From: the human T2T-CHM13v2.0 reference genome, Homo sapiens
Strand: one strand, 5' to 3'
Assembly (NCBI RefSeq): GCF_009914755.1
Contig: NC_060932.1
Length of the DNA stretch: 64,000 bases
Every line of letters starts with the position of its first letter. Position 1 is the first letter of the stretch. The notes under the pieces are model-generated. The model made no database searches, had not been told where the DNA came from, and saw nothing but the letters and a program-made list of their open reading frames with translations. Both the position numbers and the translations under genes were made by a program. Below, piece after piece: positions 15,501 through 18,500 of the stretch.

Positions 15501-18500
15501 GTTCTTCTAGATTAAAAAAGAAACTTTTAAAACAAATTATTTAAAATGTGCTAATTCTGTATGTGTCTGAAGATAGAACTCAAGTCAGAATTCTCTGGGG
15601 CTTTTTTCCGGCGTCAGGTAAGAGCATGGTGCTGTCTTGCATTTACAGAGAAGGTGAAAGTGGGCACCGTGCTTGGTGCTGGGACTGGCAGGGCTTCTAT
15701 CCCGACACGTCTGGATTCATCCAGGGTGGACCGACAGTCTCTTGTTAGCATTGATCTTGAGTGGGTCTATGTGGTATCACATCCATCATGTTGATCCCAT
15801 GAGTGCCACGCTGCAGCCGGTGAATGACGTCCCTTCACTCTGCTCATCTCAGCTCACTCCTTACCGTTTATGCTGACAAAACCCAGGTACATCCATGAAC
15901 CACATCTCCATGGGGCTGCCTGTAATACCTCCCTCAGAGTTTTCATCAAATGGCTTCAAATTCACTCTCAGTGTTTGTTTCTTCCGGTTCTCTTGGTTTG
16001 TCACTTCTAAATTATATCGAGAAGCTAAGTCAGAAATTCTCATTCTCAGTCGATAGTCATAGGACTTCTGCTGCTTGAATGACTGTTCTAAAATTCAGTG
16101 TTGGAAATGTTGGTGTGTTACTTGATATTGACAGAGTGTAGGCAGCACTGCCCAGCAACCTCTGCTTGCAGAGCGGGCAGCGTGGTAACCACCTGAGACC
16201 AGTGAGCAGCTGCAGCAGGGAGCTCCCTGTCCCTGCAAAAGCGCCGTGTCGATTGTGTGTTTGCCGTGTGGTGTTAGACTCAGCAGGAAGCTCGCTGTCC
16301 CCGCAGAAGCGCCATGTGGATTGTGCGTTTGCCGTGCGGTATTAGACTCAGCAGGAAGCTCGCCGTCCCTGCAAAGGCGCTGTGTGGATTGTGCATTTGC
16401 TGTGTGGTGTTAGACTCAGTAGGAAGCTCGCCGTCCCTGCAAAAGTGCTGTGTGGAATGTGCATTTGCTGTGTGGTGTTAGACTCAGTAGGGAGCTCACC
16501 GTCCCTGCAAAAGTGCTGTGTGGATCGTGTGGGTTGAGTGTTTGCCGTGCAGTGTTAGACTCAGTAGGGAGCTCCCCATCCCTGCAAAAGCACCGTGTGG
16601 ATTGTGGGTTTGCTGTCCGATGTTAGATTCAGCAGGGAGCTCCCTGTCCCTGCAAAAGCGCCATGTGGATCGCGGGTTTGCTCTGTGGTGTTCGACATCC
16701 GGAGTTATGATGTGGCACTTTCCTCTCTTGCAGAGGCTGCAGGCTGGTGACCATGGGTCCCCTGGTCCATGGATTGGTTTAAGCTCCCAAACTCCCTGAT
16801 GCTGTTTTGAAAAATGTCGTGTCCCCTATGGATCCATGGATTGGTTTAAGCTCCCAAACTCCCTGATGCTATTTTGAAAAATGCTGTGTAGTTTTCTGGG
16901 GTGATTTTAAAGGTTTTGCCAGCCTCCCCGATTGGGACTGGTGGCGGGGAGGAGGAAGATCGAGCGTGAGCCGTCAGTTGCTCTGGCCTGGTGCAGCGTC
17001 TTTGTTGGTGCACTCCACCCGGCCGCTGTTCCTTCTCACGTTGCGCTCCATCCTGTCTGGCAGGTGGATTTATGAGAAAGTAATGTTCACTGTTGCCATT
17101 CTGTGGGGGGGTTTCTTCATGCAGGATCTTTATAACCTCAATTCATTTTCAACAGATGGACTGTCAAGCGCTCCTAGTTCTCGAGGTCTGGTACTAAGTA
17201 GGAGTTGTGGGGGTGGGTGGGGAGGTGGCGCATAGCCCCACCTTTGGGAGCCTTTAGAACGGGAGGAGAGGTGAGATCAGTTGCTCTAGCCGGGCTCTGG
17301 CCTTCAAGGGTGTTTCAGAAGAATGGCCACTGGAGAGCTGTTACCGCCCATCCTTCCCAGGGAGAAGTTCTTCGTGTGTGTGTGTGTGCACTTTTATTCA
17401 ACTGGTCTCAAGTCAGTGTACAGGTGAAGTTCTTAAAATGTTTAGAGAAATGTGAGTACAACTTGAATCTACTTGAAAGGAAACACTCCTTCAGATGTGC
17501 AAATATTCATCATTTACTTTTGTAAAAATCAGTCACATTACTTTGTAGTTATTTAATCCTTAAAAATGAATGAAGGTAAAAAGCATCTGTGTTCCTCGCT
17601 GTAAGGTCACCTTTTAACGGAACAGGATTGGCCTCTGATGTTTCTGGCTTTGATTGTTATTGGACCAGCATCTACCTGGTCCAATACCAGCGTCCCGTCC
17701 CTGCACTGGCAGCTTGCCTAGAAGGGGCCCTGCAGCTTCCAGAAGGCCGCTGCCTCCCTGTGTGTTCTCAGAACTTTGCAGCAAGAGGGGAAGTCCACTC
17801 AGACCGCCCTGCTCTGGCCCATTCCGCTTTCTGTCCCGGAAGCGTGTCCTGAGTGCCAGGAGTGCTTCTGTACAGTTGAGCTGGATATGGCGGTTGGTAC
17901 AGGAGGATTTGTAACAAGACACAGTCATTATGAACAGGTAGCTGGAGGAGCTGCCAGCAAGCTTGTACCGTGAGGAGGGTGAGAGACAGCTCCTGAAACC
18001 TCAGGGTCCCTGCTGAGCATAGAGAGGGGAACTTCCAGGCAAACGCGGAAAGGGTCGTGGGTGAGGTCACAGAGTTGAGGGAGCTCCCAGAAAACACAGT
18101 ACCTCCCCCACAAAATTCACACGGTTTTAAAAAACAAAGCAAAACACTACTAGCAAAGAACCAGCACCAAGGAGGGAGGAAGGCGGGCGTGACTTACAGT
18201 CTTTAAATAGAAGTGAGCCCGGCCGAAGGAAGCTTGAACAGCTGAATATACACCTGACTGATCCTCCTGAAGTAGAAGGCAGCAGGAGAAGCGGAGCTGT
18301 ATTTTTAAAACGTGAAACGGTTCCTCATGAGGCTCCCCTGAGCTGCATCCTCCAGGGATGTGTGGCCAAGTGGCCGTTCTGTGGAGGCACGGAGGGGTCT
18401 GAGCAGCGCGTCCAGCCACAGCCCTGAGGGTTCTGGACACAGTGACCGATGTGGGACCCCAGGAGTGACGGGTTAGCCCCGATTTCTCTCCCTGGCCCCT

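What the first reader, a model, noticed from the sequence alone, without database searches (positions are those of the whole stretch)
17364..17438. 42-nt retrocopy of the beta-actin (ACTB) mRNA tail inside the ARHGEF10 intron, with a CA microsatellite in place of poly(A)
Seen: 17373-17425 sits between two exact GAAGTTCTT copies. On the - strand the site reads TTTT|AAGAACTTC, the L1 endonuclease TTTT/AA consensus. The insert reads ACCTGTACACTGACTTGAGACCAGTTGAATAAAAGTGCACAC then (AC)n G and contains its own AATAAA. Knowledge: I recall those 42 nt as the extreme 3' end of the human ACTB 3' UTR. Inference: an extremely 5'-truncated L1-mediated processed pseudogene, too short for standard pseudogene pipelines, whose terminal CACAC seeded a microsatellite. 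It donates an antisense poly(A) signal, makes the pre-mRNA complementary to ACTB mRNA over 42 nt, and could attract mis-mapped short ACTB 3'-tag reads.
Basis: partly seen in the sequence, partly recalled or inferred. Interest (0 to 1): 0.8.

Follow-up and report, generated by a model that had tools for sequence, protein, structure and literature searches.

The report
Tiny tailless beta-actin retrocopy in intron
A 42-base copy of the end of the beta-actin messenger RNA was pasted backwards into an ARHGEF10 intron, most likely by the LINE-1 machinery, and it looks like an ordinary, harmless molecular fossil that is unusual only for being so short and lacking an A-tail.

Summary
Window 17384-17425 (- strand) is 42/42 identical to the 3' UTR end of the intron-bearing beta-actin gene on chr7. 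It lies between exact 9-nt duplications (17364-17372, 17426-17434). The insertion site reads TT|AAGA on the insert's sense strand, one of seven typical LINE-1 endonuclease motifs. That motif set fills only 0.35% of window positions. The flanks are single-copy.

Among 27 retro-copies found, this is the only one with under 170 nt of ACTB and the only one with no A-run. After the native CACAC it has (AC)5 G where the others have CTT plus A's. One full-length pseudogene on chr5 also grew a (CA)7 at that spot, a precedent for microsatellite seeding.

Best reading: a LINE-1-mediated, extremely 5'-truncated, tail-less retrocopy of ACTB mRNA. This kind is already described (tailless retropseudogenes, class 1 templated insertions). 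How CTT and the tail were lost is unresolved. Nothing supports a function: its AATAAA is 1 of 50 on that strand, and no known RNA family matches. Age could not be tested because no primate genomes were available.

The parts
17364..17372 (+). Target-site duplication, left copy (GAAGTTCTT). Its 3' end is the inferred primer for first-strand cDNA synthesis.
   Evidence: exact 9-nt repeat of 17426-17434.
17373..17373 (-). Single G (C on the + strand) between the CA run and the duplication. It matches neither ACTB nor the target.
   Evidence: the parent has C then TT at this place.
17374..17388 (+). (GT)7.5 microsatellite, which is (CA)7C on the insert's sense strand. Positions 17384-17388 are the native CACAC of the ACTB UTR. 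Positions 17374-17383 are 10 extra bases.
   Evidence: TRF, period 2, 7.5 copies, 100% matches.
17384..17425 (-). 42 nt copied from the ACTB 3' UTR (positions 550-591 of the 602-nt stretch from the stop codon through TGA that one search used as query), antisense to ARHGEF10.
   Evidence: 42/42, E 1.5e-12; q550-591, 100%. In one search this is the only part of 17100-17700 shared by all 27 non-self matches.
17393..17398 (-). AATAAA carried over from the ACTB polyadenylation signal.
17426..17434 (+). Target-site duplication, right copy (GAAGTTCTT). It abuts the 5'-truncation point of the insert.
17431..17436 (-). LINE-1 endonuclease-type motif TT|AAGA on the insert's sense strand. The cut falls at the start of the duplicated 9-mer. 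The nicked + strand reads TCTT|AA.
   Evidence: sequence; TTAAGA is among the seven typical motifs; the motif set fills 452 of 127990 window positions, 0.35%.

Best explanation
This is a LINE-1 (ORF2p)-mediated retrocopy of the last stretch of ACTB mRNA, inserted antisense in an ARHGEF10 intron. Steps 1 to 4 below are inferred.

1. The endonuclease nicked the + strand at TCTT|AA.
2. The exposed T-rich 3' end primed reverse transcription at or next to the start of the mRNA's A-run, so essentially no tail was left.
3. cDNA synthesis or retention stopped after about 45 nt.
4. A second nick 9 nt away produced the GAAGTTCTT duplication.
5. The CA run most likely grew by slippage from the native CACAC and overwrote the adjacent CTT. 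This step has the weakest support.

The element is a neutral intronic fossil with no indication of function.
For: - Source: 42/42 identity to the intron-containing chr7 beta-actin gene.
- Boundaries: homology to the 27 other loci is confined to window 17375-17433, and the flanks are single-copy at this sensitivity.
- Machinery: an exact 9-nt duplication in register with the homology boundary.
- Machinery: the TT|AAGA motif sits exactly at the start of the duplication. The seven-motif set fills only 0.35% of window positions and 0.44% of the local 2 kb.
- Position in the mRNA: the copy ends 3 nt before the A-run. In 23 of 25 other tailed copies an uninterrupted run of 7 or more A follows CTT (or its mutated form). 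Only L025 keeps TGA, and L007 has AAAAT repeats. Priming at the start of the A-run therefore needs only CTT to be accounted for.
- The duplicated target begins AAGAA, a 4-of-5 match to the RNA's AAAAA.
- Precedent for the CA run: chr5 pseudogene L002 has (CA)7 at the same CACAC followed by TAAAAAG.
- Known class: Noll et al. 2015 (PMC5322556, parts 1-4 of 5 read) describe tail-less, TSD-flanked, internally primed retrocopies of many RNAs. They state that many more 5'- and 3'-truncated mRNA forms exist than they listed.
Against: - There is no A-tail at all, whereas all 26 other copies keep an A-run. The class 1 criteria include a 10-40 A tract.
- The junction does not read as simple priming predicts. 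(AC)5 G stands where CTT should be. Getting there from CTT needs about two to three point changes plus the expansion, although none occurred in the other 60 informative sites.
- There is no clean microhomology at either junction.
- Only 1 of 26 other copies expanded the CACAC, so this is an uncommon event.
- No intron junction is covered, so an RNA intermediate is inferred rather than shown.
- The empty site was not seen in any outgroup.
- The fold of the ACTB 3' end gives no support for a structured single-stranded priming site (z +0.95; 168 of 200 shuffles fold at least as well).
Confidence: 0.65

Rival explanations
1. A double-strand-break repair patch. A short ACTB cDNA or RNA-templated fragment was captured by end joining at a staggered break. 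This would resemble class 2 templated insertions or endonuclease-independent LINE-1 events, with the G and perhaps the CA run as filler.
For: The element has no poly(A), is truncated at the 3' end, and has at least one untemplated base at the 3' junction. These are features listed for class 2 events in Onozawa and Aplan 2016 (PMC5110952, parts 1-2 of 4 read). ACTB mRNA is very abundant (general knowledge).
Against: Class 2 and endonuclease-independent events are defined by having no duplication and no endonuclease motif. Here there is an exact 9-nt duplication and a TT|AAGA motif at the exact cut, against a 0.35% background. No junction microhomology was found.
Confidence: 0.13
2. An ordinary poly(A)-primed processed pseudogene fragment that was born with CTTAAAAA plus a tail. 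It later lost them when a CA microsatellite arose in the tail, merged with the native CACAC and deleted the sequence between.
For: Tails do turn into microsatellites in this very family. L007 has AAAAT repeats and L006 has GA-rich and GAAAAA-type repeats in its tail. L002 shows CA growth at this spot.
Against: This needs several steps and a deletion that ends exactly at the duplication, yet there are 0 changes in the other 60 informative sites. L002, which is 6.7% diverged from the parent, still keeps TAAAAAG after its CA run.
Confidence: 0.1
3. The donor was not ACTB mRNA but the chr5 ACTB pseudogene (L002) or its transcript, which already carried the CA run.
For: L002 is the only other locus with (CA)n right after GTG. 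Both alignments end at the same UTR position, q591.
Against: L002 differs from the chr8 copy at 1 of 42 positions, where chr8 equals the parent. The sequences after the CA runs are unrelated: TAAAAAG in L002, against G plus the duplication here. A pseudogene transcript would be far rarer than ACTB mRNA (general knowledge).
Confidence: 0.05
4. A functional element: an antisense poly(A) signal, or an intronic RNA segment that pairs with ACTB mRNA.
For: The ARHGEF10 pre-mRNA does contain a perfect 42-nt complement of ACTB mRNA, including its AAUAAA, and a (GU)7.5 run.
Against: AATAAA is 1 of 50 on the - strand of this window. It lacks the parent's GT-rich downstream sequence. There is no Rfam match in 16800-18000 at E up to 1. 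The hub's table shows no annotated - strand transcript or RefSeq functional element over it. The site is deep in the intron, 3.8 kb and 9.6 kb from the nearest exons.
Confidence: 0.02

Closest known systems
ACTB processed pseudogenes (the other 26 retro-copies found in this genome)
   Same: Same source mRNA and the same 3' UTR end. The 15 fetched with 400 nt or more of flank lack the parent's downstream genomic sequence. All 26 carry an A-run where the parent continues with non-A sequence.
   Different: The others carry at least 170 nt of UTR. In one search, 40 of 52 candidates were scored and all spanned essentially the whole 300-nt query. All keep an A-run. The chr8 copy has 42 nt and no A-run.
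Tailless retropseudogenes (Noll et al. 2015, PMC5322556; Schmitz et al. 2004 known only as cited there)
   Same: No oligo(A) tail, flanked by a duplication, LINE-1-type site, at least 30 nt long, and no more than 15 nt between the element's end and the duplication (criteria). Internal priming at A-rich sequence is the proposed mechanism.
   Different: Their main screen required a near-complete 5' end and at least 10 nt of 3' truncation. This copy is severely 5'-truncated. Its 3' truncation is 11 nt against the parent sequence through TGA, but only 3 non-A nt against the end used by most retro-copies. ACTB's accession (identified as such from recall) was in their query list. None of the four housekeeping hits they list is ACTB or on chr8.
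Class 1 templated sequence insertion polymorphisms (Onozawa and Aplan 2016, PMC5110952)
   Same: A short stretch templated from a distant transcribed locus, a duplication of at least 5 bp, a TTTT/A-type site, and an AATAAA inside the insert.
   Different: The 10-40 A tract that is part of the class 1 description is absent. Whether this insertion is polymorphic is unknown.
Endonuclease-independent LINE-1 insertions and class 2 templated insertions
   Same: 3'-truncated, no poly(A), possible filler bases.
   Different: Those lack duplications and endonuclease motifs. This element has both.

Membership tests
LINE-1-mediated processed pseudogene / class 1 templated insertion | Sequence derived from a mature mRNA of a distant gene | tested here: inconclusive
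   42/42 identity to the ACTB 3' UTR and a position next to the mRNA's A-run. The piece lies within one exon, so splicing, the proof of an RNA intermediate, cannot be seen.
LINE-1-mediated processed pseudogene / class 1 templated insertion | Target-site duplication of at least 5 bp | tested here: met
   Exact 9 nt at 17364-17372 and 17426-17434.
LINE-1-mediated processed pseudogene / class 1 templated insertion | Insertion at a LINE-1 endonuclease motif (TT|AAAA type) | tested here: met
   TT|AAGA at the start of the duplication on the sense strand. It is one of the seven listed motifs. Background is 0.35%.
LINE-1-mediated processed pseudogene / class 1 templated insertion | Poly(A) tract at the 3' end, 10-30 nt after a poly(A) signal | tested here: not met
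   AATAAA is present, but it is followed by AGTG, (CA)7C and G, and then the duplication. There are no A's outside the duplicated AAGAA.
Tailless retropseudogene (criteria of Noll et al. 2015) | No oligo(A) tail; duplication of 8-35 nt at 70% identity or more; length at least 30 nt; no more than 15 nt between element end and duplication | tested here: met
   No tail, 9 nt at 100% identity, 42 nt long, 11-nt gap.
Tailless retropseudogene (criteria of Noll et al. 2015) | 3' truncation of at least 10 nt relative to the source RNA | tested here: inconclusive
   11 nt are missing relative to the parent sequence through TGA. In 23 of 25 tailed copies the A-run starts right after CTT, so only 3 non-A nt are clearly missing.
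Tailless retropseudogene (criteria of Noll et al. 2015) | Target site complementary to the RNA at the breakpoint (internal priming) | tested here: inconclusive
   The duplication starts AAGAA and the RNA has AAAAA (4 of 5), but this is displaced by the missing CTT. Directly at the CACAC breakpoint only 2 of 9 positions agree, by hand comparison.
Tailless retropseudogene (criteria of Noll et al. 2015) | Near-complete 5' end (their main screen) | tested here: not met
   The copy starts at position 550 of the 602-nt stretch from the stop codon through TGA. The authors relaxed this criterion only for rRNA and histone sources.
Endonuclease-independent / class 2 repair patch | No duplication and no endonuclease motif; end-joining signatures instead | tested here: not met
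   A duplication and a motif are both present. No microhomology was found.

The most novel reading that the evidence does not exclude
The CA run was made during integration rather than afterwards. ORF2p, or a repair polymerase, began on the CACAC of an ACTB mRNA without using its tail and slipped repeatedly. That would be poly(A)-independent target-primed insertion that creates a microsatellite at birth. It would explain why a copy with 0 changes in 60 informative sites already has (CA)7 in place of CTT.
Probability: 0.1. Interest if true: 0.4.

Novelty: new member of a known kind. Interest (0 to 1): 0.2.

Why it matters
It matters little for biology at this locus, since nothing points to a function. 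It is a clean example of how short a LINE-1-made mRNA copy can be. Such a UTR-only fragment has no coding sequence for a protein-homology pseudogene search to match (my inference), and the one screen I read required a near-complete 5' end. It shows that a tail-less junction and a duplication can coexist at a canonical endonuclease site. Together with the chr5 pseudogene, it gives a second instance of a CA microsatellite starting from the same five bases of the ACTB UTR. In practice, it adds one more perfect 42-mer that very short ACTB 3' reads could map to.

Tried and rejected
- **In-genome outgroup for the empty site.** I searched 17100-17700 against the whole assembly. The flanks are single-copy, so no paralogous empty site exists.
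- **Literature by sequence.** A 29-nt stretch of the insert gave 0 papers.
- **Literature by locus.** 'ARHGEF10' with 'ACTB' and 'processed pseudogene' gave 0 papers. Two other searches failed on term syntax and were not repeated.
- **Noll et al. supplements.** Six files were searched and file 1 was unreadable. Their lists do not hold this element.
- **RNA structure at the breakpoint.** The last 121 nt of the ACTB mRNA fold no better than shuffles (z +0.95), so the idea of a truncation in a single-stranded loop could not be assessed.
- **Rfam** on 16800-18000 at E up to 1: no match.
- **Junction microhomology.** None that is clean at either end. The 12-nt version of the repeat has a mismatch exactly where the ACTB base is used.
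- **The 9-mer's window frequency as a test.** Uninformative: 3 observed against 0.96 expected, and 7 of 100 shuffles reach 3.
- **Chr5 pseudogene as donor.** Considered, and judged unlikely (see rivals).

Full report
**What is there.** On the + strand the window reads GAAGTTCTT (17364-17372), then C, then (GT)7.5 (17374-17388). Next comes the rest of a 42-nt block ending at 17425, then GAAGTTCTT again (17426-17434), then AAAA. On the - strand the order is TTTT, AAGAACTTC, the 42-mer with its AATAAA, (AC)5, G, AAGAACTTC.

**Where the 42 nt come from.** I searched the window's own assembly with 17364-17434 and got 28 matches.
- Apart from the window itself, the two full-length perfect hits (42/42) are on contig 7 at 5.64 Mb and on the X chromosome.
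- The contig 7 locus is a real gene. It has actin-coding exons separated by introns (Pfam Actin).
- Its first coding exon matches PDB chains named 'Actin, cytoplasmic 1 | ACTB protein' best (81.7 bits, against 76.4 for cytoplasmic 2).
- Its 3' UTR continues after the 42-mer with CTTAAAAATGA and then GT-rich, non-A genomic sequence.
- All 26 other loci carry an A-run after the UTR end, the mark of processed pseudogenes.
So the block is a copy of the ACTB 3' UTR. It corresponds to positions 550-591 of the 602-nt stretch from the stop codon through TGA that one search used as query.

**How unusual it is among ACTB copies.**
- A 300-nt query from the ACTB 3' end returned 40 scored matches out of 52 candidates. 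All covered essentially the whole query, and the chr8 copy was not among them.
- Of the 26 other loci, I aligned 15 to the UTR, and the other 11 appear full-length. All carry at least 170 nt of UTR.
- The chr8 copy is therefore the only ultra-short one.
- It is also the only one with no A-run. In 23 of 25 tailed copies an uninterrupted run of 7 or more A follows CTT or its mutated form. L025 keeps TGA before the tail, and L007 has AAAAT repeats.
- This means the mRNA end used for retrocopying effectively starts its A-run 3 nt after the CACAC. The chr8 copy lacks only CTT and the A's, and has (AC)5 G there instead.
- One other copy, L002 on contig 5, has (CA)7 at exactly this place, followed by TAAAAAG.

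**Boundaries and flanks.** I searched 17100-17700 against the assembly. All 27 non-self matches fall within window 17375-17433. Everything else in the 601 nt is single-copy at this sensitivity. The insertion sits in unique intronic DNA, and no paralogous empty site is available.

**Signs of the machinery.**
- The 9-nt duplication abuts the ACTB homology boundary on one side and the CA run plus one base on the other. For a fixed register the chance is 3.8e-6, and about 4.6e-5 if 12 registers are allowed.
- By themselves, 9-mer repeats are not rare in this window. The register is what counts.
- The site on the insert's sense strand is TT|AAGA, with the cut at the first base of the duplication.
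- TTAAGA is one of seven 'typical L1 EN motifs' listed in PMC6478352 (passages) and one of the non-canonical motifs listed in PMC3167599 (passage).
- The seven motifs together occupy 452 of 127990 positions of the window (0.35%) and 18 of 4130 locally.
The conclusion is unchanged.

**Mechanism.**
- *Shown:* the ACTB origin, the duplication, the motif, and the lack of a tail.
- *Inferred:* ORF2p nicked at TCTT|AA. The T-rich 3' end annealed at the start of the mRNA's A-run (target AAGAA against RNA AAAAA, 4 of 5). Reverse transcription or retention of cDNA ended after about 45 nt. Second-strand cleavage 9 nt away gave the duplication.
- Such priming predicts CTT directly before the duplicated 9-mer, but the sequence has (AC)5 G instead.
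- The simplest route is slippage growth from CACAC, as in L002. That route needs about two or three point changes in 3 nt when none occurred in the other 60 informative sites. This step is the weak one.
- Alternatives are synthesis of the CA run at integration, loss of an original tail by microsatellite turnover, or a repair patch. The last fits the missing tail but not the duplication and motif, which class 2 and endonuclease-independent events lack by definition (PMC5110952, parts 1-2 read).

**Known kinds.**
- Noll et al. 2015 (PMC5322556, parts 1-4 of 5 read) describe tailless retropseudogenes. These are tail-less, flanked by duplications and 30 nt or longer. Up to 15 nt is tolerated before the duplication. 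They are attributed to internal priming at A-rich sites.
- That screen required near-complete 5' ends. The authors say the genome holds many more 5'- and 3'-truncated mRNA forms.
- NM_001101, which I recall as the ACTB accession, is in their query list. Their four housekeeping hits are other genes on chr2, 5, 7 and 12.
- Kojima 2010 (PMC2912911, passages) also treats tail-less retrocopies and 5'-truncated mRNA retrocopies.
- The chr8 element is thus a new member of a described kind. It fails one criterion each of the textbook processed pseudogene (the tail) and of the tailless class as screened (the 5' end), and the size of its 3' truncation is borderline.
- I found no paper naming this locus. 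The library is incomplete, and I did not see pseudogene databases.

**Function.** I found no sign of one.
- The AATAAA is 1 of 50 on the - strand in 64 kb, and it lacks the parent's GT-rich downstream sequence.
- Rfam finds nothing.
- The hub's table shows no - strand gene or functional element at this position.
- The pre-mRNA does carry a 42-nt perfect complement of ACTB mRNA and a (GU)7.5 run, but deep in an intron. I know of no reason to expect an effect.
- Perfect 42-mers already exist on chrX and in ACTB itself.

**Age.** This could not be tested, because no primate genomes are at hand. Zero changes in 60 informative sites bounds neutral divergence below about 5% (95%). With recalled primate branch lengths, that favours an ape-age or younger event but does not exclude an older catarrhine or anthropoid one.

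Noticed in passing
L002 = G000:C5:78267035-78270085 (match at C5:78268295-78268585): A near full-length ACTB processed pseudogene, 93.3% identical over 597 nt of UTR. It has (CA)7 exactly where the parent has CACAC plus CT, followed by TAAAAAG. This looks like an independent microsatellite birth at the same five bases.
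   Followed up: partly
L003, L005-L028 (ACTB retro-copies): In 23 of 25 tailed copies the A-run follows CTT (or its mutated form) directly. Only L025 keeps TGA before its tail. This suggests the ACTB cleavage site used in the germline lies before the TGA, or is indistinguishable from the genomic AAAAA.
   Followed up: partly
L013/L017 (contig 7 at 153.9 and 151.1 Mb) and L026/L028 (contig 21 at 0.32 Mb and contig 9 at 76.8 Mb): These are pairs of ACTB copies that share their downstream flanks almost base for base. They are therefore segmental duplicates of one insertion rather than independent retrocopies. Many one search hits on contigs 2, 13, 14, 21 and 22 may be of the same kind.
   Followed up: no
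L009 = G000:C9:112903732-112906773: The ACTB UTR alignment is split at about UTR position 394-406 by roughly 320 nt of foreign sequence, probably a later insertion into the pseudogene.
   Followed up: no
window 17655-17689: A 14-nt inverted repeat, 93% complementary with a 7-nt loop, lies 220 nt from the insert. It contains ATTGG/CCAAT.
   Followed up: no
window 54578-54610 and the whole window: AATAAA occurs 81 times, against 29 expected from shuffles. Part of the excess comes from a tandem AAAT-type run at 54578-54610. In a crude count, 2194 of 63991 positions have an exact 9-mer recurring within 100 nt, which points to tandem repeats elsewhere in the window.
   Followed up: no
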